DNA of 64,000 nucleotides, taken from assembly GCA_035577785.1 (NCBI GenBank), contig DATLUZ010000297.1, forward strand, positions 7,802 through 71,801, written 5' to 3'. Positions within the stretch are counted from its first letter, which is position 1, and the number at the start of each line of letters is the position of its first letter. The position numbers were made by a program, and so were the translations under genes. The notes under the pieces were generated by a model, which saw only the letters and a program-made list of their open reading frames with translations, did not search any database and was not told the origin of the DNA. This stretch comes from Burkholderiales bacterium. Lineage in GTDB: Bacteria > Pseudomonadota > Gammaproteobacteria > Burkholderiales > SG8-39. Positions 7,697 to 21,404 of this stretch are shown one piece after another.

Positions 7697-8128
7697 ATGG
7701 ACCGTCCCGTGCGCACCATCATCGAGAATCAGGCTCCCGTCACCGCAACCGCTGAAATGACCGTCGCCGCGGCCTCGCGCCTCATGAAAACCAGGCGCAT
7801 CGGCGCGATCCTCGTGCTCGAAGGCGCGCGCCTCGCCGGCATCTTTACCGAGCGCGATGCGCTGTTTCGGGTCATCGCCGAGAACCGCGATCCGGGCAAG
7901 ACCAAGCTCGGCGACGTCATGACGCGCAACCCGCGCACCATCGCGCCCGATCGTCCCTTCGGGCACGCCCTGCACCTCATGCACGAGGGTGAGTTCCGGC
8001 ACGTTCCCGTGGTGGAGAACGGCCGCCCGGTCGGCATCGTGTCGGCGCGCGACGCGCTTGGGCCCGACCTTCGCCAGTTCATCTCCGACCTCGACCAGCG
8101 CGCGCACATCGGCGAGATCCTCGGGTAG
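7697..8128 (+). CDS. CBS-domain pair protein
   Basis: GAGGAGG at 7682-7688 lies 8 nt before ATG 7697 (track start TTG 7673 is less likely). Two CBS repeats are present (GILTERD-like IFTERD, VGIVSARD). Confidence 0.85.
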   Translation: MDRPVRTIIENQAPVTATAEMTVAAASRLMKTRRIGAILVLEGARLAGIFTERDALFRVIAENRDPGKTKLGDVMTRNPRTIAPDRPFGHALHLMHEGEFRHVPVVENGRPVGIVSARDALGPDLRQFISDLDQRAHIGEILG

Positions 8129-8131
8129 CCG

Positions 8132-8437
8132 GTGTACCTGGCGCGCTTCTCCTATCACATCCTGCCGGTGAACCGGCACCGCGCGCTCGAGCTCATCAGC
8201 CGCGAGCTCAAGGCCGCGCGCGGAAAGGGCCTCAATGCCCGCCTGCTCGTGCCGCTGACTCGGGGCCAAGGCGCTCCTGCGCTGCAATTCGAGCTCGAGC
8301 TCAAGAAGCTCGACGAGCTCGAGCAGTTCCGCCATGGCGTCGGCACGAAGGGCGACGCCGGCAAGTGGATGCAGAGCTTCAGCGAGATCTTGGTCTCGCC
8401 CCCCGAAGTCGAGATCCTGCGCGTCGAAGCGGACTAG
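8132..8437 (+). CDS. Hypothetical 101-aa protein (possibly small alpha+beta barrel)
   Basis: GTG start 4 nt after the CBS gene stop, with high GC3. I recognise no motif. Confidence 0.55.
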   Translation: MYLARFSYHILPVNRHRALELISRELKAARGKGLNARLLVPLTRGQGAPALQFELELKKLDELEQFRHGVGTKGDAGKWMQSFSEILVSPPEVEILRVEAD

Positions 8438-10410
8438 CTCGAGAGCTCCGGCAGGTCCCTGAAGAGCTCGAGCGCTTCGGGATTCGCCAGCGCGTCGGTG
8501 TTGGTCACCGGCATGCCGTGCACCACCGCCTTGACCGCGAGCTCGACCACCTTGCCGTTCTTGGTCCGCGGGATGTCGTCCACCTGGACGATGCGCGCGG
8601 GCACATGGCGCGGCGAGGCGTGGCGCCGGATCTCGAAGCGGATGCGCTCCTCGAGGTGGTCCTCGAGACGCTGTCCGTCCCTAAGCTTCACGAACAGCAC
8701 GACGCGCGTATCGGTCGGCTGCTCGGGCGGCCAGAGCTGGCCGATGGCCACCGCCTCCTCGACCTCGTCGATGCGCTCGACCACGCGGTAGATCTCTGCG
8801 GTGCCGATGCGCACGCCGCCGGGGTTGAGAGTGGCGTCGGAGCGCCCGTAGACGAGCATCGTGCCGCGCTCGGTGAGCTCGGACCAGTCGCCGTGCGTCC
8901 AGACGCCGGGGTACTTGGCGAAGTAGGCCGAGTGATAGCGCTCGCCGCCGCGGTCGTTCCAGAACCCGAGCGGCATCGAAGGAAAGGGCTTGGTGCACAC
9001 GAGCTCGCCCTTCTTTCCGACCACGGAGTTGGCCTCTTCGTCGAACACCTCGACCGCCATGCCGAGCGAGCGGCACTGCAGCTCGCCTCGATAAACCGGC
9101 AGCACGGCGCTCGCGTCGGCAAAGGCGCCCATGATGTCGGTGCCGCCGGAGATGGAGGCGAGGCACGCGTCGCTCTTGACGGCGTCGTAGACGTAGTCGA
9201 AGCCCTCGGGCGCGAGCGGCGATCCGGTCGACAGGATCATGCGCACCGAGCCCAGGTCGTGCGTGTCGCGCGGCCGCAGGCCGCGCTTCGCCGCGGCATC
9301 GATGAACTTGGCCGAGGTGCCGAAATGGGTGATGCGCTCCTTCTCGGCATAGTCGAAGAGAATGCGGCCGTTGCGGGCGAAGGGCGAGCCGTCGTACAGC
9401 ATCACGCTCGCCTCCGCCGCGAGCGCCATGAAGAGGAGGTTCCACACCACCCAGTTCGTGGTGCAGTAGTAGAAGTAGCGCTCGCCCGGGCGCAGGTCGA
9501 AGTGCAGCTTGAACATCTTCAGCGCCTGCAGCAGCGTTCCGCCGGCGCCGTGCACGATGCACTTGGGCTTGCCGGTCGTGCCCGAGGTAAACAGGATGAA
9601 CACCGGGTGATCGAACGGCAGCTGCGCGAAAGCGATGTCGCCGGGCGTGTAACGGCGCAGCCATTCGCCGAGCGTCACGGCCTTGGGAATCTCCGACACG
9701 TCGACCTTCGGATCGAGATGCGGCACCACCACGACCTTCCGCACGCTCGGCAGCTTTTCCACCAGAGCGGCGACGCGCTCGAGCGAGTCGTGCGTCTCGC
9801 CGTTGTAGCGGTAGCCATCGGCGCAGAACAGCACCTTGGGCTCGATCTGGCCGAAGCGCTCGAGCACGCCTTCGACGCCGAAATCCGGCGAGCAGGAAGA
9901 CCACACGATGCCCTGCGACAGCGCCGCAAGCGCGAGCATTCCGGCCTCGGGAAGGTTTGGAATGAACGCCGCGGCGCGCTCGCCGGCGCGCAATCCGAGC
10001 GCGGCCAGCGCCTGGGCGGCGCGCGAGGCGTCGCTGTAGAGGTCGGCGTACGAGACTCGCCGCCGGGGACCGGATTCGTCCCAGAATACGAAGGCGTCGC
10101 CGCGATCGCCGCGGCGCATGAGGTTCTCGGCGAGGTTGAGGCGCGCCTCCGGGAACCAGCGCGCGCCGGGCATCTTGTCGCCGTCGACCAACACTGCGGC
10201 GCCCTTGCGCGAGGCGAGCACGCCGCAGAAATCCCACGTGTCGGACCAGAACTCTTCCGGCCGCTCGACCGACCAGCGGTAGAAATCCGGGTAGCTGTTC
10301 AGCTCGAGGCGGCGCTTTCGCACGACCTGGCGCGCGAATTGCGTGAGCTGCGCCTCCTCGACGGCGCGCTCGCTCGGCTGCCAAAGTATCCGCGGCGCAT
10401 TCGCCGTCAT
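8434..10410 (-). CDS. aacS: Acetoacetyl-CoA synthetase (acetoacetate-CoA ligase)
   Basis: ORF 8434..10569 trimmed to ATG 10410 (MTANAPRILWQPS...), giving 658 aa. It has AMP-binding motif FTSGTTGKPK and the N- and C-terminal layout of acetoacetyl-CoA synthetases. Confidence 0.9.
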   Translation of the reverse strand: MTANAPRILWQPSERAVEEAQLTQFARQVVRKRRLELNSYPDFYRWSVERPEEFWSDTWDFCGVLASRKGAAVLVDGDKMPGARWFPEARLNLAENLMRRGDRGDAFVFWDESGPRRRVSYADLYSDASRAAQALAALGLRAGERAAAFIPNLPEAGMLALAALSQGIVWSSCSPDFGVEGVLERFGQIEPKVLFCADGYRYNGETHDSLERVAALVEKLPSVRKVVVVPHLDPKVDVSEIPKAVTLGEWLRRYTPGDIAFAQLPFDHPVFILFTSGTTGKPKCIVHGAGGTLLQALKMFKLHFDLRPGERYFYYCTTNWVVWNLLFMALAAEASVMLYDGSPFARNGRILFDYAEKERITHFGTSAKFIDAAAKRGLRPRDTHDLGSVRMILSTGSPLAPEGFDYVYDAVKSDACLASISGGTDIMGAFADASAVLPVYRGELQCRSLGMAVEVFDEEANSVVGKKGELVCTKPFPSMPLGFWNDRGGERYHSAYFAKYPGVWTHGDWSELTERGTMLVYGRSDATLNPGGVRIGTAEIYRVVERIDEVEEAVAIGQLWPPEQPTDTRVVLFVKLRDGQRLEDHLEERIRFEIRRHASPRHVPARIVQVDDIPRTKNGKVVELAVKAVVHGMPVTNTDALANPEALELFRDLPELSS

Positions 10411-10415
10411 GCTGG

Positions 10416-10443
10416 TGTCTCCGGCCTGCAGTTGTCTCCGGCC
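10416..10443 (-). repeat. Two direct copies of GGCCGGAGACA (17-nt period) in the aacS leader
   Basis: tgtctccggcc occurs at 10416-10426 and 10433-10443 (plus-strand reading), between the TATAAT box and ATG 10410. Confidence 0.7.
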
Positions 10444-10456
10444 GATTTCGCGCAGC

Positions 10457-10462
10457 ATTATA
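10457..10462 (-). promoter_or_regulatory. Consensus -10 hexamer TATAAT upstream of aacS
   Basis: Reverse complement of attata at 10457-10462. It lies in the only AT-rich patch of the 58-bp aacS/putA divergent spacer. Confidence 0.35.
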
Positions 10463-10468
10463 TGGCCC

Positions 10469-13423
10469 ATGGATGAACGCATCCGACAGGACCACCGCCT
10501 CGCGGAGGCGGCGGCGATCGAACGCCTGCGCGCCCTGCAGCCCGATCGCGAGGCGTCGCATCGGATCACCGAGCAGGCGCTGAGCCTGGCACGCGAGGTG
10601 CGATCGACGCGCCCGGCCGCCCTCAGCGCCGAGTCGTTCCTCCGCCACTATGGCCTGTCGACGCCGGAGGGCGTTGCCCTGATGTGCGTGGCCGAAGCGC
10701 TCCTGCGCATCCCGGATCCCGAGACTGCCGACGCCCTTCTGCGCGAGAAGCTCTCCGCCGGAGAATGGGGCAAAAGCGGGGGCAAAGGCGGGGCGGCCCA
10801 CGAGGACGACTCCTGGGCCGCGAGCGCGGCCGATTGGGCGCTCATGCTGACCGGCACGCTCGCGCGCTGGCGCGAAGCGCAGGCCGAGCCGATCGCCCAG
10901 CTCAAGCGCCTCGCCGCGCGCCTGGGCGAGCCGGTGGTGCGCACGGCGGTGCGCCAGGCCATGCGCATCCTCGCAAGCCAGTTCGTGATCGGGGAGACGA
11001 TCGATGAAGCTGTGACCCGCGGCCGCGCGTTCGAAGCCTATCGCTTCTCCTACGACATGCTGGGCGAGGCTGCGCGCACCGCCGAGGACGCGGCGCGCTA
11101 CTTCGACGCTTATTGCCGCGCGATCCGCGGCACGCCGGCGGGCGACGGCGTGTCGGTGAAGCTCTCCGCGCTGCATCCGCGCTTCGAGGAGGGGAAGCGC
11201 GCACGCGTGCTCGACGAGCTCGCGCCGCGCGTCGCCCAGCTCATCCGCCTCGCCGAGCAAAGCGCGGTCGGGATCACGATCGACGCCGAAGAGTCCGAGC
11301 GGCTCGAGCTCACGCTCGAGCTTTTCGAGCTGCTGAGCCGCGGCCATACGCTCGGTCTCGCCGTCCAGGCCTACCAGAAGCGCGCGCTCGCCGTTTGCGA
11401 CTGGCTGGTCGGCCTGCGGCGCCGTATCTCGGTGCGGCTGGTGAAGGGAGCGTACTGGGACGGCGAGGTCAAACGGGCGCAGCAGCTCGGCATGGCCGAC
11501 TACCCGGTGTTCACCCGGAAATCCGCGACCGACCTCTCCTACGTGGCGTGCGCGCGGCAGCTTCTCGCCGCGCCGGCGACGCTCTATCCGGCGTTCGCGA
11601 CCCACAACTGCCGCACGGTCGCGACGATCTTCGAGCTCGCGGGCGACCGCCCATTCGAATTCCAGAAGCTCTTCGGGATGGGCGACACGCTGTACGAGGT
11701 GCTTTCGCGCACGCGCGCGTTCGCCTGCCGCATCTATGCGCCGGTCGGGAGCTTCACCGACCTGCTGCCCTACCTCGTGCGCCGGCTGCTCGAGAACGGC
11801 GCCAACACATCCTTCGTCCACCAGATCGCCGACCCGGCGGTGCCGCTCGAGGCGCTGGTCGCCGATCCCCTGGAAGCCCTGCCCCAGCCGTACAGTCCCG
11901 ATCCGCGCATCCCACTTCCGCGCGAGCTCTATCCGGATCGCCTGAACTCGCTCGGGCTCGACCTCGCGCGCGAGGATGTTCTGCATTCGCTCGCCGAGAG
12001 GATTCGTTCCGACCGCGGCCGCGAGAATCTGGCCGCGGTGGAGAGCACCACCGCCCAGGAGCTCGACTTCAGCATCGCGCGCGCCGCGTCGGCGTTCGAT
12101 TCGTGGACCCGCGTGCCGGCGCCCGGGCGCGGCGCCGCGCTCGAACGTGCGGCCGATGCGATGGAACGGCGCATGCCGGAGCTCGTTTCACTCATCGTGC
12201 GCGAGGGCGGCCGCACCTATGCAGACGCGGTGTCGGAAGTGCGCGAGGCGGCCGACTTCTGTCGGTACTACGCCCTGCAGGCGAGAAAGCACTTCGAAAC
12301 CCCGTTTCGGCTCTCCGGGCCGGCCGGGGAGAAAAACGAACTTTTTCTTCACGGCCGCGGAGTGTTTGCCTGCATCGCGCCGTGGAACTTTCCGCTCGCC
12401 ATCTTCACCGGCCAGGTCGCGGCCGCGCTCGCCGCGGGAAACACGGTCATCGCGAAGCCCGCCGAGCAGACGCCCCGGATCGGCTGGCGTGCCGTCGAAA
12501 TCCTGCACCAGGCCGGCATCCCGGCCGACGTCCTGTCGTGCGCGGTGGGCGACGGCGAGACGCTCGGCGCGCCGCTCGTCGCCGACCCTCGCATCGCCGG
12601 CGTCGCCTTCACCGGCTCGGACGAGACCGCGCGGCGGATCAACGCGGCGCTCGCGGCCCGTTCCGGACCGATCGCGACGCTGATCGCGGAAACGGGCGGC
12701 GTCAACGCCATGCTGGTCGACGCTTCCGCCCTGCCCGAGCAGGTTGTCGACGACGTCGTCGTTTCTGCGTTCCAGAGCGCCGGCCAGCGCTGCTCGGCGC
12801 AGCGCATCCTCTTCGTGGACGAGGGCTGCGCCGCGCGCGTGATGCGCCTGCTCGCCGGCGCGCTCGGCGAGCTGAAGGTGGGCGATCCCGCCGAGCCCGA
12901 CACGGATGTCGGCCCCATCATCGACGCCCCGGCCCGCGCGGCGCTTGCTCGGCACGTCGAGAAGCTCCGGGCGGGCGCAAGACTGATCGGCGAGGCGCGC
13001 GCTCCCTCGTCGGGCAACTACATCGCTCCGATCGCCTTCGAGATGCCGATCGAAGCGCTGCCCCAAACCGAGGTTTTTGGCCCGGTTCTCCATGTCTGCG
13101 TTTACCGCAGAGACGACCTCGGGCGAGTGCTGCAGTGGATTCGCGACACCGGCTACGGCCTCACGCTCGGCGTGCACAGTCGCATCCAGAGCTTCGTCGA
13201 CACCGTGGTGCGCGAAGCGCGGGTGGGCAACGTCTACGTCAACCGCAGCATGATCGGCGCGGTCGTCGGCGTGCAGCCTTTCGGCGGCGAAGGGCTCTCG
13301 GGCACCGGCCCGAAGGCCGGCGGGCCGCACTATCTCTTCAGGTTCGCGACCGAGCGGACGCTGACCGTCAACACCGCGGCAGTCGGCGGCGTCACAGAGC
13401 TCCTCACCCGGCCTTTGAAGTGA
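10469..13423 (+). CDS. putA: Bifunctional proline dehydrogenase / 1-pyrroline-5-carboxylate dehydrogenase PutA (no DNA-binding domain)
   Basis: ORF 10343..13423 trimmed to ATG 10469 (MDERIRQ...), giving 984 aa. It has a PRODH barrel (VRLVKGAYWD) followed by an aldehyde dehydrogenase domain with catalytic Cys in SAGQRCSA. Confidence 0.9.
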   Translation: MDERIRQDHRLAEAAAIERLRALQPDREASHRITEQALSLAREVRSTRPAALSAESFLRHYGLSTPEGVALMCVAEALLRIPDPETADALLREKLSAGEWGKSGGKGGAAHEDDSWAASAADWALMLTGTLARWREAQAEPIAQLKRLAARLGEPVVRTAVRQAMRILASQFVIGETIDEAVTRGRAFEAYRFSYDMLGEAARTAEDAARYFDAYCRAIRGTPAGDGVSVKLSALHPRFEEGKRARVLDELAPRVAQLIRLAEQSAVGITIDAEESERLELTLELFELLSRGHTLGLAVQAYQKRALAVCDWLVGLRRRISVRLVKGAYWDGEVKRAQQLGMADYPVFTRKSATDLSYVACARQLLAAPATLYPAFATHNCRTVATIFELAGDRPFEFQKLFGMGDTLYEVLSRTRAFACRIYAPVGSFTDLLPYLVRRLLENGANTSFVHQIADPAVPLEALVADPLEALPQPYSPDPRIPLPRELYPDRLNSLGLDLAREDVLHSLAERIRSDRGRENLAAVESTTAQELDFSIARAASAFDSWTRVPAPGRGAALERAADAMERRMPELVSLIVREGGRTYADAVSEVREAADFCRYYALQARKHFETPFRLSGPAGEKNELFLHGRGVFACIAPWNFPLAIFTGQVAAALAAGNTVIAKPAEQTPRIGWRAVEILHQAGIPADVLSCAVGDGETLGAPLVADPRIAGVAFTGSDETARRINAALAARSGPIATLIAETGGVNAMLVDASALPEQVVDDVVVSAFQSAGQRCSAQRILFVDEGCAARVMRLLAGALGELKVGDPAEPDTDVGPIIDAPARAALARHVEKLRAGARLIGEARAPSSGNYIAPIAFEMPIEALPQTEVFGPVLHVCVYRRDDLGRVLQWIRDTGYGLTLGVHSRIQSFVDTVVREARVGNVYVNRSMIGAVVGVQPFGGEGLSGTGPKAGGPHYLFRFATERTLTVNTAAVGGVTELLTRPLK

Positions 13424-13440: not shown

Positions 13441-14259
13441 CTAGCGCGCGCTCATCAGCTCGCGCGCCGTCGACTTGTTGTGCTCGTACATGCGGCGGTT
13501 GTATTCGACGACATAGGCGTGCTGCTTGCCGATGCGCACGCTCGCGTCGTGGCCAAGGCTTTCGTAGCACGACGCGCCGAGGGGCTTCACACCGATCGTC
13601 CAGGGCGACGCGGTTTCCTTGCCGGCTTCCGCGGCGGGATAACCGGATACCTCGTCCACGCACTGGCGCATCGACATGTAGCGGCGGTCGCCGGCCTTGA
13701 TCGCCTGGGCCACCGCCTGCTCCACCGGAACCTGGGTCAGGGTGTCGGGTGCGCCCTTGCCCGCCGCCAAACGCGCGCCCAACGGCTCGCCGTCGACCAT
13801 GTCGGCGATCGGGCCGGCGACGTGGATCGCAACCACGATGCCAAAGGCGGTGCACACCGCCCGTATCGGTGTCCATTTCACGACAACTGGCCAGGCGCGC
13901 TTGAGGAAGAAGATCATCGTTCCCACGCCGACGATGGCGAGCGCGACAATCGGATGGCGCTCGCAGATCCCATAGGTGTAAGCAGAAAGCTTCGCCGCGA
14001 AGGGCATCGCCTGCTCGAGCATCCTCCAGCCCTTGTGCGCGAAGGCCATGACGTAGACGAGCGATGAAACCGCGATCAGCCAGCCACCAGCGACAAAGGC
14101 GAGGTTGCTCGGCAGGCTGTAAGGCCGCCATTCCTGCTGCAGCAGCACGAAGACTGCGAGCGCCACAACCGTGAGCAGCGCGACGGCCAGAATATGCTCG
14201 CTGAAGGCCCGCTGCACGAGGGTGGGCCAGGAGCTGACGAAGTTGACGATGGCGTCCAT
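13441..14259 (-). CDS. Hypothetical integral membrane protein with soluble C-terminal domain
   Basis: 272 aa. GGAGG lies 5 nt before ATG 14259. There are 4-5 predicted TM helices followed by about 110 hydrophilic residues, with no recognisable family motif. Confidence 0.7.
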   Translation of the reverse strand: MDAIVNFVSSWPTLVQRAFSEHILAVALLTVVALAVFVLLQQEWRPYSLPSNLAFVAGGWLIAVSSLVYVMAFAHKGWRMLEQAMPFAAKLSAYTYGICERHPIVALAIVGVGTMIFFLKRAWPVVVKWTPIRAVCTAFGIVVAIHVAGPIADMVDGEPLGARLAAGKGAPDTLTQVPVEQAVAQAIKAGDRRYMSMRQCVDEVSGYPAAEAGKETASPWTIGVKPLGASCYESLGHDASVRIGKQHAYVVEYNRRMYEHNKSTARELMSAR

Positions 14260-14368: not shown

Positions 14369-15631
14369 CTACGCTCTGCGCACCATCGCCGGCGTGAGCG
14401 CCTTGATCGAAGGCGCGCCGACCTGCTGCATGATCGCGCGCAACTCGACGCGCAGCAGCTCCATCACCCGCTCCACGCCGGGCTGCCCGAACGCGCCGAG
14501 TCCCCAGATATACGGCCGTCCGACGCACACGCCCTGCGCGCCCATGGCGAGCGCCTTGACGATGTCGGTGCCGCGGCGGAAGCCGCTGTCGACGAAGATC
14601 GGGATGCGACCGCGCACTGCCTCGACGATCTCGGGCAGCGCGTCGATGGTAGAGCGGCCGCTGTCTTCGCTGCGCGCGCCATGGTTGGAGACGATGATTC
14701 CATCCATGCCCTGCTCCGCGGCGAGAACCGCGTCCTCGTGCGCGAGGATGCCCTTGAGCACGATTTTCATCTTGGTCGTATCGCGCAGCCGCTTGAGGAA
14801 ATCCCAGGTCATATTCGACGACTGGGTATTCGTCAAACCCGACACATCGACACCCTCATACATCGCTCGGCGCTTCAGGCTTGCCTGCAGGCTGCTGCGG
14901 TCGTGGCAGGTGGCGCACTCCCGCTTGTCGGTGCGCTGAAGCCTGAAAAGCGTCTCCTGGTTGCGTCCGCCGCTGCGGTCCACCGTCACCGCGACGACCG
15001 GACAGCCCGCTTTCTCCGCCCGTGTGACGAACGCCTTTGCGACGTCCCATTTGTTCGTCGCGTAGAGCTGGTACCACACCGGCGCGCCGCGTGCAGCGGT
15101 GACCTCCTCGACCGACGACGTCGTCGCGGTCGACAGGATCATGAGATGGTTGCCCGCCCGCGCGCCCCGGGCCACCGCGATTTCGCCTTCCTGGTGGAAC
15201 GACTTCTGCCCGCCCACCGGCGCAATGATGATGGGGCTGGCGTAGCGCACGCCGAGGATCTCGGTGCTCATGTCGACCTTGCTCACGTCGACCAGCCGGC
15301 GCGGCCTGAGCTGGAACTTGAGGAAGCCTTCGCGGTTGGCGCGGAGCGTCACCTCGTCGTCGATGCCCGAGGCCATGTAGCCGAAGTGCGCCGGCGGGAC
15401 GTTCTTGCGCGCCACCGGCTCGAAGTCGAACACGTTGATCGCGTCCTTCGGCGAGGCGATCAGGTCTTCCGTGCGCATCGGCGCCCACATGATCGGATCG
15501 GGCAGCTTGGACGGCGCGAGCGGCCCGTCCGCGCCCAGTGCGCCCAGCCCGGGCCAGGCGAGGAGCGGACTTCCCGCGAGGAATTCCAGAAAGCGGCGGC
15601 GGCTTTCGGTTCTGATCTTCGAGTCGGGCAC
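14369..15631 (-). CDS. FMN-dependent alpha-hydroxy-acid dehydrogenase/oxidase (LldD/glycolate-oxidase family) with twin-arginine signal
   Basis: ORF 14369..15658. I prefer GTG 15631, which lies 5 nt after AGGGAGG. Tat motif SRRRFLE is followed by a hydrophobic stretch and LGA. Family motifs are VSNHGARS and DSGFRRGTD. An insert carries CATCH. Confidence 0.85.
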   Translation of the reverse strand: MPDSKIRTESRRRFLEFLAGSPLLAWPGLGALGADGPLAPSKLPDPIMWAPMRTEDLIASPKDAINVFDFEPVARKNVPPAHFGYMASGIDDEVTLRANREGFLKFQLRPRRLVDVSKVDMSTEILGVRYASPIIIAPVGGQKSFHQEGEIAVARGARAGNHLMILSTATTSSVEEVTAARGAPVWYQLYATNKWDVAKAFVTRAEKAGCPVVAVTVDRSGGRNQETLFRLQRTDKRECATCHDRSSLQASLKRRAMYEGVDVSGLTNTQSSNMTWDFLKRLRDTTKMKIVLKGILAHEDAVLAAEQGMDGIIVSNHGARSEDSGRSTIDALPEIVEAVRGRIPIFVDSGFRRGTDIVKALAMGAQGVCVGRPYIWGLGAFGQPGVERVMELLRVELRAIMQQVGAPSIKALTPAMVRRA

Positions 15632-15682
15632 GTTCACCTCCCTAAAGGCGCTCTTCACTTCAGGTGTTCTTCACTTCATGAA

Positions 15683-16654
15683 TCAGTCTATCCGCGCGCC
15701 GGAGGCCTTGACCACCGGCGCCCACTTGGCGATCTCGCTCTTCACGAACTCCGCGAACTGCGCCGGCGTGTTCGGCGAGAAGCGCGCGCCCTCGTTCGGC
15801 AGCCGCGCCTGGATCTCGGGCGAGGCCATGATTCGCATGGCTTCGGAATTCCACCGCTGGACGATGCCCGCAGGGGTGCCGGCGGGCGCGAACAGGCCGA
15901 TCCAGTTGTTGACCTCGAATCCCGGCAGCGCCTCGCCGACGGTAGGCAATTCCGGGGTCGCGGCGGCGCGCGCATGGCCCATGGTGGCGAGCGCGCGGAG
16001 CTTCCCCGCCTTCGCTTGCGCCAGCACGGTGGGCATGGTGGCAAAGAGGAGCGAGGTCTGCCCCGCGAGCAGCTCGGTGATGGCGGGGACGTTCCCTTTG
16101 TAGGGCACGTGGGTCAGGTCGATCTTCGCCATCGTCTTGAAGAGCTCTCCGGCGAGATGGCTCGCCGTCCCCATGCCGGCTGACGCGAACGTAAGCTCCC
16201 CGGGCCGCGCCCGGGCGAGCGCGATCAGCTCGCCGACGCCGTTCGCGGGCACCGAGGGATGCACCACCAGCAGGCCCTCGGCCTCGAGCACGAGCACGAC
16301 GGCGGCAAAATCCTTCACCGGGTCGTAGGGCAGCTTGGAAAAGAGCGTCACGTTGACCGCGTGCGTGCCGACCGCGCCCATGACCAGCGTGTAGCCGTCG
16401 GGCGGCGACTTCGCCACGGCTTCGGCCGCGATGGTGCCGCCGGCGCCGGCGCGGTTTTCGACCAGCACCGGCTGGCCCCAGCTTTCGGCGACGCGCTGGC
16501 CGATGATCCGCGCATAGATGTCGGCGATGCCGCCGACCGGGAATGCGCAGATGATGCGGATCGGCTTTGACGGGTAGGGCTGCGCGCGCGCCTCCAAGCC
16601 CCATGCAATGCAAAGGGCAAGGCCAAGCGCGCCAAGCCGACCTAGAATTGCCAT
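15683..16654 (-). CDS. Bug-family (TctC-like) tripartite tricarboxylate transporter substrate-binding protein, orphan
   Basis: 323 aa with a signal peptide, YPSKPIRIICAFPVGG and VENRAGAGG motifs. No tctA/tctB lies nearby. Confidence 0.9.
   Translation of the reverse strand: MAILGRLGALGLALCIAWGLEARAQPYPSKPIRIICAFPVGGIADIYARIIGQRVAESWGQPVLVENRAGAGGTIAAEAVAKSPPDGYTLVMGAVGTHAVNVTLFSKLPYDPVKDFAAVVLVLEAEGLLVVHPSVPANGVGELIALARARPGELTFASAGMGTASHLAGELFKTMAKIDLTHVPYKGNVPAITELLAGQTSLLFATMPTVLAQAKAGKLRALATMGHARAAATPELPTVGEALPGFEVNNWIGLFAPAGTPAGIVQRWNSEAMRIMASPEIQARLPNEGARFSPNTPAQFAEFVKSEIAKWAPVVKASGARID
16643..16648 (+). promoter_or_regulatory. TAGAAT -10-like hexamer upstream of gdh, encoded inside codons 3-4 (ATT CTA) of the divergent Bug gene
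   Basis: One of seven correctly oriented TAGAAT copies. A second candidate, TAGAAC, is at 16676-16681. Confidence 0.3.
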
Positions 16655-16691: not shown

Positions 16692-19600
16692 ATGGAAGCC
16701 AAGACGCAGCCAGCGAAGTCGGATCTCGCCCAGCGATTCGAGCGGCTTTATTACGCGGAGGTCGACCCCGAAGAGCTCGCCGCGCGCAGCGCCAGGGATC
16801 TCGCCGGGGCGGCCGCGAGCCACCTCGAGCTCGGCCGCAGGTTCGCCAGCGGCAAGTCGACGATCCGCGCCTACAACCCCACGCAGGGCCAGCACGGCTG
16901 GCAGAGCACCCACACCGTCGTGGAGATCGTCAACGACGACATGCCGTTCCTCGTCGACTCGGTGACGATGGAAGTGAACCGCCAGGGCCTCACCCTGCAT
17001 CTCGTGATCCATCCAGTGCTGAGAACCGTGCGGAACGCCGCGGGCGAGCTCGAGTCGGTGTCCGCCCCGGGCGAGTCTTCCGGGGGCCGGCTCGAGTCGT
17101 TCATGCACCTCGAGGTGGACCGCCGCACCGATCCGGCCAAGCTCGCCGAGCTCGAAGCGGGGCTCGCCAAGGTGCTGGGCGACGTGCGGGCCGCGGTCCA
17201 GGACTGGGGCGCGCTGAAGGGGCGCATGGCCGACGTGCTCGCCAAGCTGGACGAAGCACGCAACGGCGTCGACCGCGCCGAGCTCGAGGAGGGCCGCGCT
17301 TACCTCGAGTGGCTGATGAACGACCACTTCACCTTCCTCGGCTGCCGGGATTACGTCCTCGAGCGGGCAGAGAGCCAGGACGTGCTGCGCATCGTGCCGG
17401 GAAGCGGCCTCGGAATCCTGCGCGAGCGCGGCGAGACGCTGTCGGTGAGCTTCGCCGGCCTGCCGCCGGAGGCGCGCAAGCGCGCCCGGGTGAAGGAGCT
17501 CCTGGTGCTGATCAAGGCGAGCTCGCGCTCGACGGTGCACCGCTCGGGCCACCTGGACTACGTCGGCGTGAAGCATTTCAATGCCGCCGGCGAGGTGGCC
17601 GGCGAGACCCGCTTTCTCGGCCTCTACACGCACACCGTCTACGCCGAAAACGTGACCCAGGTGCCCATCCTGCGGCGCAAGCTCGCCGCGGTCGTCGAGC
17701 GCGCCGGGCTGCTGCCGGCGGGGCACAGCGGCAAGGCGCTCGCGTCGATCCTCGAGAGCTACCCGCGCGACGAGCTGCTGCAGATCAGCGCCGACGACCT
17801 CTACGCGCATGCGATGGCGATCCTGCAGCTCGGCGAGCGCCAGCGCCTGCGCCTGCTCGTGCGCCAGGACGCCTACTCGCGGTTCGTGTCGTGCCTCATC
17901 TTCGCGCCGCGCGAGCGCTACAACACGGAGCTGCGCCTGCGGTTCCAGCAGATCCTCACCGAAGCCTTCGACGGCGTCTCCTCCGAATTCGACGTCGACC
18001 TCTCGGCCTCCGCGCTGGGACGCATCCTCATGCGCATCGCCACCAAGCCGGGCGCGATGCTGCGCGCGCCGGACGTGAAGGCGCTCGAGAAGCGCCTGGT
18101 CGATGCGATGCGGCGCTGGGAGGACGACTTGCATGCCGCGCTGGTCGAGCGCCACGGCGAGGAGCACGCCAACCAGCTCTACGGGGTTTACGCCAGCGCG
18201 TTCCCCGCGAGCTACCGCGAGGAGTATGCGGTGCAGGACGCGGCCTGCGACATCGACATGATCGAGAGCCTCGATCCGAAGACCGACCTCGGCATGAACC
18301 TGCACGCAAGCGCTCGCGCGGAGCCCGGGACCCTGCGGTTCAAGATCTACCGCCGGGGCAGCCGGATTCCGCTCTCCGACACCCTCCCGATGCTGGAGCG
18401 GCTCGGCGTGCGCGTGCAATTCGAGCATCCGCACAGGGTCGAGCCCGCGGGCGCGCCGCCGGTGTGGGTGGTCGACTTCGGTCTGACGCCGCCCGCGGCC
18501 GCGCGGCCGCTTAAAGAGGTGCGCGACAGTTTCCACGAGGCTTTCTTCGGCATGTGGTCCGGCGCCGTGGAGGCGGACCCGCTCAACCGCCTGGTGCTCA
18601 CCGCCGGGCTCAAGCCGGCCGAGATCGTCGTGCTGCGGGCCTACGCGCGCTACCTCAACCAGACAGGCTCGGCGCTTAGCCTGTCGTACGTCGAGCAGGC
18701 GCTGGCTGGAAACCCGGCGGTGGCCTCGCTGCTCGTGCGTCTGTTCTTCTCCCGGTTTGATTTGAAGGGCAAGCACGACGAAGGCCGCTACGCCGCGGAA
18801 ATTGAAGCTGCGCTCGATGAAGTAGAAAACCTGGACGAGGACCGCATCCTGCGCAGCTTCCTCGCGGTCGTGCAGGCGACCACCCGGACGAACTATTTCC
18901 TCGAGCGGCCCTACCTCTCGTTCAAGCTCGACCCCAAGCGCGTCCCCGGCCTGCCCCAGCCGCGGCCGATGCACGAGATCTGGGTCTACTCGCCGCGCGT
19001 CGAGGCGGTGCATCTGCGCGGCGGGCCGGTCGCGCGCGGCGGAATCCGCTGGTCGGACCGCAGGGAGGACTTCCGCACCGAAGTGCTCGGCCTGATGAAG
19101 GCCCAGATGGTGAAGAACGTGGTCATCGTCCCGGTCGGGGCGAAGGGCGGCTTCGTCTTGAAGCGCGCCACGGCCGGCAACCGCGAGGCGCTGATGAAGG
19201 AAGGGGTGGCCTCGTACCAGACCTTCCTGCGCGGCATGCTCGACATCAGCGACAACCTGGCGGACGGGAAGGTGGTGCCGCCGCGCTGCGTGGTGCGCCA
19301 CGACGGCGACGATCCCTATCTCGTGGTGGCCGCGGACAAGGGCACCGCGACGTTTTCCGATTACGCCAACGCCATTTCGCAGGAGTACGGCTTCTGGCTG
19401 GACGACGCGTTCGCTTCGGGCGGCTCGGCCGGGTACGACCACAAGGCAATGGGCATCACGGCGCGCGGCGCGTGGGAATCGGTCAAGCGCCACTTCCGCG
19501 AGCTCGGCATCGACACGCAGGCGAACGAGTTCACCGTCGTCGGCATCGGCGACATGTCGGGCGACGTCTTCGGCAACGGCATGCTGCTCTCGCGCAAGCT

Positions 19601-21404
19601 CAAGTTGGTCGCCGCGTTCGACCACCGCCACGTATTTCTTGATCCGGCGCCCGAGCCGGAGAGAAGCTGGCAAGAAAGAAAAAGGCTGTTCGAGCTGCCG
19701 CGCTCCTCGTGGGGCGATTACGACGCGAAGCTGCTCTCGCAGGGCGGCGGGATCTTCCCGCGCAGCGCGAAGTCGATCGCCCTGTCTCCCGAGGTGCGCA
19801 AGGTCCTCGACGTCAAGGCGGAGGGGCTGACGCCGGGAGAACTGATCAGCGCGATCCTCAAGTCGCCCGTGGATCTCCTCTACAACGGCGGCATCGGCAC
19901 CTACGTGAAATCGAGCCGGCAGTCGAACGCCGACGTCGGCGACCGCGCCAACGACGCGATCCGGGTGAACGGCGCCGAGCTGCGCTGCCGCGTCGTCGCC
20001 GAGGGCGGCAACCTCGGCTTCACCCAGCTCGGGCGCGTCGAGTACGCCCTGAAGGGCGGCCGCATCAACACCGACGCCATCGACAACTCGGCCGGCGTGG
20101 ACTGCTCCGACCACGAGGTCAACATCAAGATCCTGCTGAACGCGGTGGTGCGCGAAGGCCGGCTCGCGCGCGCCGAGCGCGACAAGCTGCTCGCGGAGAT
20201 GACCGACGAGGTCGCGGCGCTCGTGCTGCGCGACAACTATTTCCAGACCCAGAGCCTGTCGGTCACGGGAACGCTCGCGCCCGCGCTGCTCGATGCGCAG
20301 GAGCGCTTCATCAAGACCCTGGAGAAGGCGGGCCGGTTGAACCGCGCGCTCGAGTTCCTGCCGAGCGACGAGGAGCTCGCCGAGCGCCGCGCCGCCAAGC
20401 TCGGCCTCACCTCGCCCGAGCGCGCGGTGCTGCTCGCCTACGCGAAGATCGCGCTCAACGACGAGCTGGTCGGCTCGAACGTTCCGGACGACCCGTGGGT
20501 CGCGACCGCGCTCGAGCGCTATTTCCCGACACCCCTGCGGGGCCGCTACAAGGCTCAGATCTACGCGCACCCCCTGCGCCGCGAGATCATCGCCACCCAC
20601 GTCGCGAACAGCATGGTGAACCGCGTCGGCAGCACCTTCGTGCACCGCATGCAGGAGGAAACGGGCGCCGCGGCTCCGGACGTGGTGCGCGCCTACCTCA
20701 TCGTGCGCGAGGTGTTCGGCTTCGTCGAGCTCTGGCGCGCGAGCGAGGCGCTCGACTACCAGGTGCCCGACCGCACCCAGACCGCGATGATCATCGACGG
20801 TCTGCGGCTCATCGTGCGCGCCACGCTGTGGTTCCTGCGGCATCGCGAGCGCCTCGTCGACATCGCAGGCTCGATCGAGCACTTCCGAATCGGAGCCGAG
20901 CACGTGGCGGCGCTCTTCCCGCAGGTCCTGCCGCCGATGGACCAGTTCGCCTACACCTCGGCGGCCGGACGGCTGGAGAAGGATCGCGTGCCGCGGGAGC
21001 TCGCCGCGCGGGTCGCGGGCCTGGACGCGATGTTCAACGCCCTCGACATCGTCGAGGTCGCCGACCGGTTGAAGCGCGACGTCGCCGACGTGGCGCGGGT
21101 GCACTTCGGGCTGGCGGGCGAGCTCGACTTTCCATGGCTGCGCGAGCGCATCGGCATCCTGCCGACCGAGAACCACTGGCAGACGCTCGCCAAGGCAGCG
21201 CTGCGCGACGACCTTTCCGGCATGCTGCGCGCGCTCACCGCCGACGCCCTGCGCGCCGGGGACGTCGCGACCTGGAAGGCGCGCAACGCCGTGCTGCACG
21301 AGCGCCTGAGGCAGATCCTCGCCGAGCTGCGCGCGGTGGAGTCGCCCGACCTCGCCATGCTCTCGGTCGCGATGCGCGAGCTGCGCAACCTCGCATCGCG
21401 CTAG
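16692..21404 (+). CDS. gdhB: NAD-specific glutamate dehydrogenase, large (about 180 kDa) type
   Basis: 1570 aa in the Bac_GDH family. The central catalytic region contains GGIRWSDR and VGAKGGFV motifs. Confidence 0.95.
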   Translation: MEAKTQPAKSDLAQRFERLYYAEVDPEELAARSARDLAGAAASHLELGRRFASGKSTIRAYNPTQGQHGWQSTHTVVEIVNDDMPFLVDSVTMEVNRQGLTLHLVIHPVLRTVRNAAGELESVSAPGESSGGRLESFMHLEVDRRTDPAKLAELEAGLAKVLGDVRAAVQDWGALKGRMADVLAKLDEARNGVDRAELEEGRAYLEWLMNDHFTFLGCRDYVLERAESQDVLRIVPGSGLGILRERGETLSVSFAGLPPEARKRARVKELLVLIKASSRSTVHRSGHLDYVGVKHFNAAGEVAGETRFLGLYTHTVYAENVTQVPILRRKLAAVVERAGLLPAGHSGKALASILESYPRDELLQISADDLYAHAMAILQLGERQRLRLLVRQDAYSRFVSCLIFAPRERYNTELRLRFQQILTEAFDGVSSEFDVDLSASALGRILMRIATKPGAMLRAPDVKALEKRLVDAMRRWEDDLHAALVERHGEEHANQLYGVYASAFPASYREEYAVQDAACDIDMIESLDPKTDLGMNLHASARAEPGTLRFKIYRRGSRIPLSDTLPMLERLGVRVQFEHPHRVEPAGAPPVWVVDFGLTPPAAARPLKEVRDSFHEAFFGMWSGAVEADPLNRLVLTAGLKPAEIVVLRAYARYLNQTGSALSLSYVEQALAGNPAVASLLVRLFFSRFDLKGKHDEGRYAAEIEAALDEVENLDEDRILRSFLAVVQATTRTNYFLERPYLSFKLDPKRVPGLPQPRPMHEIWVYSPRVEAVHLRGGPVARGGIRWSDRREDFRTEVLGLMKAQMVKNVVIVPVGAKGGFVLKRATAGNREALMKEGVASYQTFLRGMLDISDNLADGKVVPPRCVVRHDGDDPYLVVAADKGTATFSDYANAISQEYGFWLDDAFASGGSAGYDHKAMGITARGAWESVKRHFRELGIDTQANEFTVVGIGDMSGDVFGNGMLLSRKLKLVAAFDHRHVFLDPAPEPERSWQERKRLFELPRSSWGDYDAKLLSQGGGIFPRSAKSIALSPEVRKVLDVKAEGLTPGELISAILKSPVDLLYNGGIGTYVKSSRQSNADVGDRANDAIRVNGAELRCRVVAEGGNLGFTQLGRVEYALKGGRINTDAIDNSAGVDCSDHEVNIKILLNAVVREGRLARAERDKLLAEMTDEVAALVLRDNYFQTQSLSVTGTLAPALLDAQERFIKTLEKAGRLNRALEFLPSDEELAERRAAKLGLTSPERAVLLAYAKIALNDELVGSNVPDDPWVATALERYFPTPLRGRYKAQIYAHPLRREIIATHVANSMVNRVGSTFVHRMQEETGAAAPDVVRAYLIVREVFGFVELWRASEALDYQVPDRTQTAMIIDGLRLIVRATLWFLRHRERLVDIAGSIEHFRIGAEHVAALFPQVLPPMDQFAYTSAAGRLEKDRVPRELAARVAGLDAMFNALDIVEVADRLKRDVADVARVHFGLAGELDFPWLRERIGILPTENHWQTLAKAALRDDLSGMLRALTADALRAGDVATWKARNAVLHERLRQILAELRAVESPDLAMLSVAMRELRNLASR

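What the first reader, a model, noticed from the sequence alone, without database searches (positions are those of the whole stretch)
14369..16654. Tat-exported FMN alpha-hydroxy-acid dehydrogenase with an inserted CXXCH motif, paired with an orphan Bug binding protein
The LldD/glycolate-oxidase-family enzyme carries a textbook twin-arginine motif (SRRRFLE, 15584-15604). The motif is followed by a hydrophobic region and LGA. This predicts a periplasmic location, unusual for a family I know as cytoplasmic, peroxisomal or inner-membrane-associated. In the variable loop between the beta4 and alpha4 equivalents there is an insert containing C-A-T-C-H (14903-14917), the canonical heme-c attachment motif. 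The eukaryotic relative flavocytochrome b2 couples this FMN domain to a heme. Against that, covalent heme-c attachment is normally Sec-dependent, so the motif could be a disulfide, a metal site or chance. The gene lies 51 nt downstream of a Bug/TctC carboxylate-binding protein with no tctAB, which suggests a periplasmic binding-protein plus enzyme pair.
Basis: partly seen in the sequence, partly recalled or inferred. Interest (0 to 1): 0.55.

Follow-up and report, generated by a model that had tools for sequence, protein, structure and literature searches.

The report
Exported flavoenzyme with conserved haem-c motif
This soil bacterium encodes a lactate/glycolate-oxidase-type flavoenzyme that is sent folded into the periplasm and carries a strictly conserved haem-c attachment motif in its active-site lid, marking a widespread, undescribed enzyme clade that may be a new kind of flavocytochrome c.

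Summary
The gene at 14369-15631 (-), which starts at GTG 15631 behind a GGAGG, is an FMN-dependent alpha-hydroxy-acid dehydrogenase (PF01070, E 1e-114). It has a twin-arginine leader (SRRRFLE) and one CATCH in loop 4.

Neither feature is chance.
- All 120 closest database relatives and all 80 genome loci keep both, while the two middle residues of CxxCH vary freely.
- In 52 diverse members, down to 38% identity, Cys239, Cys242 and His243 are three of only ten invariant columns.
- His82 (43/43 against 0/23 in exported relatives without the motif), Arg112 and Arg281 travel with the motif. Met257 is present in 77-91%.
- The motif occurs only in exported members.

The genome has TatC and CcmC/E/F. 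The loop is not an insert: it is 57 residues against 55 in glycolate oxidase.

The Bug neighbour is lineage-specific. The genome holds about 187 Bug matches, and no neighbour is conserved across the family.

My best reading (about 0.5) is a periplasmic flavocytochrome c whose haem is attached to the lid loop after Tat export. The main rival (about 0.27) is a Cys2His2 metal or Fe-S site. Haem itself is untested, and I found no paper on this clade. First-stage readers of this scan noted the same kind of protein on other DNA (e1-3204490).

The parts
14369..15631 (-). FMN-dependent alpha-hydroxy-acid dehydrogenase gene, 420 aa, GTG start
   Evidence: PF01070 at E 1.1e-114 over residues 74-418. About 40% identical to glycolate oxidase. 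Most database relatives have the same 420-aa length and N-terminus.
15637..15641 (-). Shine-Dalgarno GGAGG, 5 nt before GTG 15631
   Evidence: Read directly from the sequence.
15530..15631 (-). Twin-arginine signal peptide, residues 1-34, with a likely cleavage after ALGA
   Evidence: SRRRFLE is followed by a mildly hydrophobic h-region (Kyte-Doolittle about 1-1.5). RR is present in 202-203 of 217 relatives, and the rest are truncated gene calls. AF2 pLDDT is below 50 for residues 24-52. The cleavage site is inferred.
15584..15604 (-). SRRRFLE twin-arginine motif
   Evidence: Conserved as [SN]RRxFL.
15386..15388 (-). His82, three residues before the substrate Tyr85; candidate distal haem ligand or fourth metal ligand
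   Evidence: Invariant in alignment A1 and present in 215/217 relatives. Found in 43/43 motif-bearing enzymes against 0/23 exported enzymes without the motif. Its role is inferred.
14903..14917 (-). Cys239-Ala-Thr-Cys242-His243, the CxxCH motif in loop 4
   Evidence: Invariant C, C and H with variable middle residues.
14861..14863 (-). Met257 in the R-R-x-M-[YF]-x-G motif; alternative distal ligand
   Evidence: Present in 198/217 and 33/43, but absent in some divergent members.
14672..14689 (-). SNHGAR, holding the catalytic His317 and Arg320
   Evidence: Aligned to SNHGAR/SNHGGR of glycolate and lactate oxidases. Conserved in relatives.
15683..16654 (-). Bug/TctC-family periplasmic binding protein with a Sec-type leader, probably co-transcribed upstream
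   Evidence: PF03401 at E 3.6e-68. No terminator-like site in the 51-nt gap. No TctA on this contig.
13441..14259 (-). Downstream 272-aa putative membrane protein of unknown family
   Evidence: No Pfam match even at E 10. Syntenic only in the four closest relatives, as cluster 33. Its link to the enzyme is unknown.

Best explanation
The gene encodes a periplasmic FMN-dependent 2-hydroxy-acid dehydrogenase. The proposed sequence of events is this. It folds and binds FMN in the cytoplasm and is exported folded by the Tat system. In the periplasm the cytochrome c maturation machinery attaches one haem c to Cys239 and Cys242 of the active-site lid (loop 4). His243 is the proximal ligand, and His82 or Met257 is the distal one. 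Substrate oxidation reduces the FMN, and the electrons pass one at a time through the lid haem to soluble periplasmic cytochromes c and on to a terminal oxidase. This parallels flavocytochrome b2, but with a built-in c-type haem in place of a b5 domain. Shown here: the enzyme family, intact catalytic residues, a conserved Tat leader, an invariant CxxCH with a co-conserved His82, restriction of the motif to exported members, and the presence of Tat and Ccm genes. Inferred: actual export, haem attachment, the identity of the distal ligand, the electron acceptor and the substrate.
For: Family and catalytic set: PF01070 at 383.6 bits. Tyr85, Tyr190, Asp218, Lys293, His317 and Arg320 align to the glycolate oxidase catalytic residues.

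Leader: RR is kept in all full-length relatives.

CxxCH: kept in 120/120 close hits, 80/80 genome loci and all 43 Tat-bearing motif loci of an independent metagenome sample. More than 40 different middle pairs occur. C239, C242 and H243 are 3 of the 10 invariant columns in 52 sequences down to 38% identity.

The motif is tied to export. Among 50%-identity representatives, 35 have RR and CCH, 19 have RR only, and 41 have neither. The 8 with CCH only are fragments or truncated.

Co-conserved residues: His82, Arg112 and Arg281, with Met257 partly conserved. This is the set expected for an axial ligand and propionate partners.

A loop-only Pfam scan gives only sub-threshold hits, all to cytochrome c families.

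Exported sister enzymes without the motif sit beside same-strand multihaem cytochromes c in 4 of 23 loci. This suggests that this exported clade works with c-type haems.

The genome encodes CcmC, CcmE and CcmF and TatC. Of 30 other genomes with the enzyme, 29 have cytochrome c biogenesis proteins.

Loop 4 is modelled with pLDDT 78-87, so it is not predicted to be floppy.
Against: No haem was observed; everything rests on sequence. No cytochrome c domain reaches a Pfam threshold, and the loop of about 40 residues is far smaller than any known monohaem cytochrome c domain. Covalent haem attachment normally acts on Sec-exported unfolded chains, and a Tat substrate matured on a loop after export is unusual. 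Met257 is missing in some divergent members. The four invariant side chains (2 Cys, 2 His) fit a tetrahedral metal or Fe-S site equally well. His82, Arg112 and Arg281 could be simple clade signatures, because motif-bearing sequences group together in the tree. I could not read model coordinates, so the proximity of His82 to the motif is untested.
Confidence: 0.5

Rival explanations
1. Cys239, Cys242, His243 and His82 form a Cys2His2 metal site that is loaded in the cytoplasm and carried out by Tat. It could be structural Zn, or a redox-active Fe, [2Fe-2S] or Cu centre. It would either stiffen the lid or act as the electron relay in place of haem.
For: Exactly four invariant potential ligands co-occur. 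Tat export is the usual route for proteins with pre-loaded metal cofactors. No cytochrome c fold is detectable. Met257 is dispensable in some members.
Against: C-x-x-C-H with free middle residues is the canonical haem-c signature, whereas adjacent Cys-His rarely bind one metal ion. The motif is confined to exported members, which a cytoplasmically loaded site does not require. A Met conserved in 77-91% has no role in this model.
Confidence: 0.27
2. Cys239 and Cys242 form a periplasmic CxxC disulfide, structural or redox-regulatory, that fixes or gates the lid loop. No extra cofactor is involved.
For: CxxC disulfides are common in periplasmic proteins. The pair occurs only in exported members.
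Against: This does not explain the invariance of His243 next to the second Cys, nor the co-conserved His82.
Confidence: 0.08
3. The enzyme and the upstream Bug/TctC protein are a dedicated functional pair. The binding protein would deliver the hydroxy-acid to the enzyme or capture the keto-acid product for uptake.
For: The two genes are 51 nt apart on the same strand with no terminator-like site between them. Bug genes fill the -1 or +1 slot in 16 of 151 neighbour slots, against 5.5% over all slots.
Against: The excess comes from two synteny groups of related genomes. The orthologous upstream Bug is present only in the four closest relatives. Most alphaproteobacterial and acidobacterial loci have no Bug gene nearby. 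The genome has about 187 Bug matches and 7-9 TctA. Its own paralogues (52% identity) are closer to this Bug than the Bug genes beside orthologues elsewhere (44-48%).
Confidence: 0.12
4. The CxxCH and the RR motif are chance features of an ordinary cytoplasmic LldD-like enzyme with a mis-called start.
For: A single CxxCH is usually a false positive. In one archaeal survey 4347 of 4410 single-motif proteins were (PMC4429474).
Against: Both motifs are conserved at the protein level down to about 40% identity. The three cytoplasmic-type paralogues in the same genome have neither.
Confidence: 0.02

Closest known systems
Glycolate oxidase / L-lactate oxidase / (S)-mandelate dehydrogenase (PF01070 TIM-barrel FMN enzymes)
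   Same: The fold matches (TM-score 0.90 on the target, about 40% identity to 5zbm). The FMN site and the catalytic Tyr, Tyr, Asp, Lys, His and Arg are shared, and loop 4 has the same length.
   Different: The known enzymes are cytoplasmic, peroxisomal or membrane-associated. They have no signal peptide and no CxxCH, and they use O2 or quinone as acceptor. The residue at the glycolate oxidase Trp108 position is Thr168 here, so the substrate pocket probably differs.
Flavocytochrome b2 (yeast L-lactate:cytochrome c oxidoreductase)
   Same: It has the same FMN domain (E 1e-56 to 1fcb). It also follows the same logic of FMN to a bound haem to soluble cytochrome c in an extracytoplasmic compartment. 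His82 lies three residues before the equivalent of b2 Tyr143, which from my own knowledge of the b2 structure lies at the flavin-haem interface.
   Different: Its haem is a non-covalent b-type haem in a separate N-terminal cytochrome b5 domain. A relative with that domain was seen (P0221, Cyt-b5 plus FMN_dh). Our protein has no such domain, and any haem would be c-type on the lid loop.
Periplasmic flavocytochromes c and flavoprotein-cytochrome c dehydrogenases (flavocytochrome c sulfide dehydrogenase, p-cresol methylhydroxylase, gluconate/fructose dehydrogenases)
   Same: They combine a periplasmic flavin dehydrogenase with c-type haem as the electron outlet (review PMC6472588).
   Different: They use FAD-type folds and carry the haem on a separate subunit or a full cytochrome domain. 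From my own knowledge, the flavoprotein usually goes by Tat and the cytochrome by Sec. Here a single Tat-routed polypeptide would carry both.
Split-Soret cytochrome c (predicted Tat leader plus CxxCH haems)
   Same: It is a precedent for a twin-arginine leader and haem-c motifs on the same polypeptide (PMC4429474).
   Different: It is an unrelated fold and not a flavoenzyme, and its Tat routing is itself only predicted.

Membership tests
FMN-dependent alpha-hydroxy-acid dehydrogenase/oxidase (PF01070) | Profile match above the curated cut-off over the whole barrel | tested here: met
   383.6 bits against a 24.9 cut-off, profile positions 1-349 of 350.
FMN-dependent alpha-hydroxy-acid dehydrogenase/oxidase (PF01070) | Catalytic His and Arg (SNHGxR), the Lys, the Asp of TVD, and two substrate Tyr | tested here: met
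   His317, Arg320, Lys293, Asp218, Tyr85 and Tyr190 align to the glycolate oxidase residues and are conserved. The equivalent of glycolate oxidase Arg164 is ambiguous: it could be Arg223 or Asn224.
FMN-dependent alpha-hydroxy-acid dehydrogenase/oxidase (PF01070) | TIM-barrel fold like the solved members | tested here: met
   AF2 model with pLDDT 84.9. Foldseek to 5zbm gives E 8e-36 and TMt 0.90.
LldD / L-lactate oxidase / MftD equivalogs (NCBIfam) | Score above the equivalog cut-off | tested here: not met
   229.6 against 376, 214.2 against 645.5, 203.9 against 550 and 202 against 470.85. It is not an equivalog of any named enzyme.
Tat substrates | N-terminal S/T-R-R-x-F-L-K motif, mildly hydrophobic h-region and a small-residue cleavage site | tested here: met
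   SRRRFLE, an h-region with Kyte-Doolittle about 1-1.5, and ALGA followed by DG. Conserved in relatives. TatP and SignalP were not available.
Tat substrates | Tat machinery present in the genome | tested here: met
   TatC at E 1e-69 on contig C124.
Tat substrates | Tat-dependent export demonstrated | not testable with these tools
   This needs a tatC mutant or an RR-to-KK variant followed by cell fractionation.
c-type cytochromes | CxxCH motif in an extracytoplasmic protein | tested here: met
   CATCH at residues 239-243 behind an export signal, and invariant across the clade.
c-type cytochromes | Cytochrome c maturation system in the host | tested here: met
   CcmF, CcmE and CcmC lie clustered on contig C14. 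Of 30 other host genomes, 29 are positive.
c-type cytochromes | Recognisable cytochrome c domain or fold | tested here: not met
   The loop alone gives only sub-threshold hits (E about 0.1, 13 bits against cut-offs of 24-27). The whole protein matches no cytochrome family.
c-type cytochromes | Conserved distal axial ligand | tested here: inconclusive
   His82 is invariant and Met257 is present in 77-91%. Geometry could not be checked because model coordinates were not readable.
c-type cytochromes | Covalently bound haem | not testable with these tools
   This needs haem staining, a pyridine haemochrome assay or mass spectrometry.
Flavocytochrome b2 | N-terminal cytochrome b5 haem domain | tested here: not met
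   No Cyt-b5 match in our protein. The domain is detectable in the relative P0221.
Tripartite tricarboxylate transporter (TctABC) | TctC binding protein encoded with the TctA/TctB membrane parts | tested here: not met
   The neighbour is a TctC (PF03401). None of the nine TctA matches lies on this contig.

The most novel reading that the evidence does not exclude
This clade is the first FMN-family flavocytochrome c. It would be a folded, FMN-loaded Tat substrate that receives a covalent haem c on its active-site lid only after export. That would show that the cytochrome c maturation machinery can modify a loop of an already folded protein. It would also define a widespread soil-bacterial route for oxidising 2-hydroxy acids in the periplasm and feeding the electrons directly into the cytochrome c pool.
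Probability: 0.45. Interest if true: 0.8.

Novelty: new variant of a known kind. Interest (0 to 1): 0.6.

Why it matters
The FMN alpha-hydroxy-acid oxidase family is a textbook enzyme family, and its only known haem-bearing member is the eukaryotic flavocytochrome b2. An abundant bacterial clade turned up here. One scan of species-representative genomes gave 473 matching stretches, in Burkholderiales, Xanthobacteraceae and other Hyphomicrobiales, Acidobacteriota and Rokubacteria. The clade is exported and carries an invariant CxxCH-plus-His signature, and it has gone unremarked under the generic name 'alpha-hydroxy acid oxidase'.

If the motif binds haem, several things follow:
- It reveals a new minimal way to build a cytochrome c site, on a loop of about 40 residues rather than a domain.
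- It challenges the rule that haem-c proteins need Sec export.
- It adds periplasmic hydroxy-acid oxidation to soil carbon and energy metabolism.
- It offers a compact candidate enzyme for direct-electron-transfer biosensors for lactate or glycolate.

If the motif binds a metal instead, it is still an undescribed second cofactor site in this family.

Tried and rejected
I took genomic context from the search for related loci and my own gene caller instead.
- **First gene caller.** A GC3-based caller merged genes into giant ORFs. I replaced it with a codon log-odds caller.
- **Complex prediction.** Two copies of the mature enzyme with FMN and haem riding along gave 'no answer' (score 0.02). No contacts were returned, so this counts neither for nor against anything.
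- **Model coordinates.** The AF2 model's coordinates were not exposed, so I could not measure distances from His82 or Met257 to CxxCH, or from CxxCH to FMN.
- **Structure searches.** Foldseek returned only the expected oxidases.
- **Literature.** Six full-text searches found no paper on a Tat-exported or haem-c-bearing member of this family.
- **Protein atlas.** It gave only generically named clusters.
- **Conserved operon partner.** None exists. Neighbours include queA/tgt, ligA, PPIases, an aminotransferase with an acyl-CoA dehydrogenase, and MarR with an enoyl-CoA hydratase, varying by lineage.
- **Fusions to cytochrome c domains.** None was found among the long relatives. These were tandem FMN_dh duplications or fusions to other domains, plus one b5 fusion.
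- **Tree.** The careful tree search did not finish, so only the quick tree is used.
Full report
**Observation.** The finding covers two same-strand genes on the minus strand. The upstream gene (15683-16654) is a Bug/TctC-family binding protein (PF03401, E 3.6e-68) with a Sec-type leader. The downstream gene is an FMN-dependent alpha-hydroxy-acid dehydrogenase (PF01070, E 1.1e-114, profile positions 1-349 of 350). The longest ORF starts at GTG 15658. However, GTG 15631 lies 5 nt behind a GGAGG (15637-15641) and gives the 420-aa length shared by most database relatives.

**Enzyme.** The closest solved structures are glycolate oxidases and L-lactate oxidases, at about 40% identity. The AF2 model (mean pLDDT 84.9) superposes on 5zbm with TM-score 0.90 on the target. 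Tyr85, Tyr190, Asp218, Lys293, His317 and Arg320 align with the catalytic residues of glycolate oxidase and are conserved in relatives. The protein should therefore be an active 2-hydroxy-acid-oxidising flavoenzyme. It falls below every NCBIfam equivalog cut-off (LldD, lactate oxidase, MftD), so its substrate is not assigned. The glycolate oxidase Trp108 position is Thr168 here, which suggests a different pocket.

**Export signal.** The N-terminus reads MPDSKIRTE-SRRRFLE-FLAGSPLLAWPGLGALGA-DG. That is a consensus twin-arginine motif, a mildly hydrophobic h-region and a plausible cleavage site. It is translated and under selection. Of 217 distinct full-length relatives, 202-203 keep RR, and the rest are truncated gene calls. 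Even 40%-identical members keep RRxFLxFLAxSPL. The barrel begins near residue 63, and residues 24-52 are modelled with pLDDT below 50. The genome encodes TatC. The three other FMN_dh paralogues in the genome have neither a leader nor CxxCH. Non-covalent FMN must be loaded in the cytoplasm, which explains the use of Tat; that step is inference.

**The CxxCH motif.**
- All 120 best database hits (81-100% identity) have exactly one CxxCH at the same place. So do all 80 loci recovered from species-representative genomes.
- An independent metagenome sample held 43 loci with both the leader and the motif, plus one motif-bearing copy cut at a contig end.
- The two middle residues take more than 40 different pairs.
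- In an alignment of 52 diverse members down to 38% identity, only ten columns are invariant. Three of them are Cys239, Cys242 and His243.
- Among representatives clustered at 50% identity, 35 have both RR and the motif, 19 have RR only and 41 have neither. The 8 with the motif only are fragments or truncated N-termini. The motif is therefore confined to exported enzymes.
- In a tree built from the barrel alone, with leader and loop removed, the cytoplasmic forms make one supported clade. The exported motif-less forms branch beside them. The motif-bearing forms are a deep, diverse radiation with few apparent losses, some of which are frameshifted entries (quick tree only).

**Residues that travel with the motif.** Counts are motif-bearing exported enzymes, against exported enzymes without the motif, against enzymes without a leader.

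| Residue | Metagenome sample | Other counts |
|---|---|---|
| His82 | 43/43 vs 0/23 vs 1/13 | 91% vs 26% vs 2% of representatives; 215/217 overall |
| Arg112 | 42/43 vs 0/23 vs 1/13 | 214/217 overall |
| Arg281 | 38/43 (+4 Lys) vs 2/23 vs 1/13 | 213/217 overall |
| Met257 | 33/43 (not informative in the other two groups: mostly gaps) | 198/217 overall |

- Met257 sits in an R-R-x-M-[YF]-x-G or K-P-M-F-x-G motif, but it is missing in some divergent members.
- His82 sits three residues before Tyr85, in a short helix (residues 80-87 in the model).
- Tyr85 is the equivalent of flavocytochrome b2 Tyr143. From my own knowledge of that structure, Tyr143 lies at the flavin-haem domain interface.
- These residues may partly be clade signatures rather than independent evidence.

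**Not an insert.** The Asp of TVD and the conserved Trp are 57 residues apart here and 55 in spinach glycolate oxidase. The HMMER alignment to 5zbm needs only small gaps. The motif replaces the PPFLTLKNF stretch of the normal lid loop. The loop is modelled at pLDDT 78-87.

**Genomic context.**
- The Bug pairing is not a family trait. A same-strand upstream Bug orthologue (90-94% identity) occurs only in the four closest relatives.
- One betaproteobacterial synteny group has a convergent downstream Bug at 44-48% identity. That is less similar to ours than the genome's own paralogues, at 52%.
- Most alphaproteobacterial and acidobacterial loci have no Bug gene nearby.
- Bug genes occupy 9-12% of the adjacent slots against 5.5% of all slots, and the excess comes from those two groups.
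- The genome has about 187 Bug matches and 7-9 TctA genes, none on this contig.
- No other neighbour is conserved. Contexts include queA/tgt, ligA, an aminotransferase with an acyl-CoA dehydrogenase, and MarR with an enoyl-CoA hydratase.
- In this window the flanks are a 1570-aa NAD-glutamate dehydrogenase, PutA and a 272-aa membrane ORF without a family.

**Links to c-type cytochromes.**
- The genome has CcmC, CcmE and CcmF in a cluster.
- Of 30 other genomes carrying the enzyme, 29 have cytochrome c biogenesis proteins. This is a necessary condition with little discriminating power.
- Exported sister enzymes that lack the motif sit next to same-strand multihaem cytochromes c (c7/c3 type) in 4 of 23 loci.
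- Motif-bearing loci only occasionally have class-I cytochromes nearby: 2 of 43 and 4 of 80.
- This pattern fits an exported clade that hands electrons to c-type haems, with the haem built in where the motif is present. It is suggestive only.
- A Pfam scan of the loop alone gives three sub-threshold hits, all cytochrome c families at E about 0.1.

**Interpretation.** The best reading is a periplasmic flavocytochrome c: FMN is loaded in the cytoplasm, the protein is exported by Tat, haem c is attached to the lid loop, and electrons flow from FMN through the haem to periplasmic cytochrome c. I put this at about 0.5.

The main rival, at about 0.27, is a Cys2His2 metal or Fe-S site formed by the same four invariant residues and loaded before export. 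A plain disulfide does not explain His243 or His82. Chance is excluded by conservation.

The objection that haem c needs Sec is softened in three ways. The motif lies on a surface loop. From my own knowledge, the maturation systems recognise little more than CxxCH. And predicted Tat leaders occur on Split-Soret cytochromes c (PMC4429474).

**Comparison with known systems.** A review of flavoenzymes carrying cytochromes lists b-type fusions (flavocytochrome b2, cellobiose dehydrogenase) and c-type subunits or domains on FAD enzymes. It lists no FMN_dh enzyme with haem c (PMC6472588). Six full-text searches found nothing on this clade, and databases call it only 'alpha-hydroxy acid oxidase'. First-stage readers of this scan noted similar Tat-signal FMN oxidases in four other genomes, one of them with a CxxCH. 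None of those notes had been checked.

**Limits.** There is no experimental evidence and no signal-peptide predictor was available.

Noticed in passing
L087:42-620, L100:2925-3704, L116:3506-4252, L153:6922-7515: Exported (RR-leader) FMN_dh enzymes that lack the CxxCH sit next to same-strand tetra- or penta-haem cytochromes c (Cytochrome_C7/CIII, Paired_CXXCH) in 4 of 23 metagenome loci. This may be a two-gene version of the same electron path.
   Followed up: partly
window 16692-21404 (+): A 1570-aa NAD-specific glutamate dehydrogenase (Bac_GDH_CD with ACT and helical domains) is transcribed divergently, only 37 nt from the Bug start. It is syntenic in the closest relatives.
   Followed up: no
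window 13441-14259 (-): A 272-aa ORF with several hydrophobic segments and no Pfam match even at E 10 lies directly downstream of the enzyme on the same strand. It is conserved in that position only in the four closest relatives (cluster 33).
   Followed up: partly
whole genome G000: About 187 tblastn matches to the Bug protein against only 7-9 TctA matches, so most of these binding proteins are 'orphans'.
   Followed up: partly
L081 (about 8001-10600): Two motif-bearing FMN_dh genes (415 and 417 aa, each with one CxxCH) lie in tandem on the same strand.
   Followed up: no
proteins P0169 and P0165: Exported relatives carry CPACK and CAACN at the motif position. CxxCK is the variant haem motif known from NrfA, so the site may have diverged rather than been lost.
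   Followed up: no
proteins P0151 and P0160: Motif-bearing members of 471-483 aa have an extra segment of about 60 residues between leader and barrel. In P0151 this segment contains a further CPDC pair.
   Followed up: no
L012, L013, L018, L022 and about 10 further alphaproteobacterial loci: A conserved arrangement in Xanthobacteraceae-like genomes. A PEP-mutase-family gene, a GNAT and an NAD-epimerase lie divergently upstream. A class I/II aminotransferase and an acyl-CoA dehydrogenase lie downstream on the same strand. This may hint at the keto-acid product being transaminated.
   Followed up: partly
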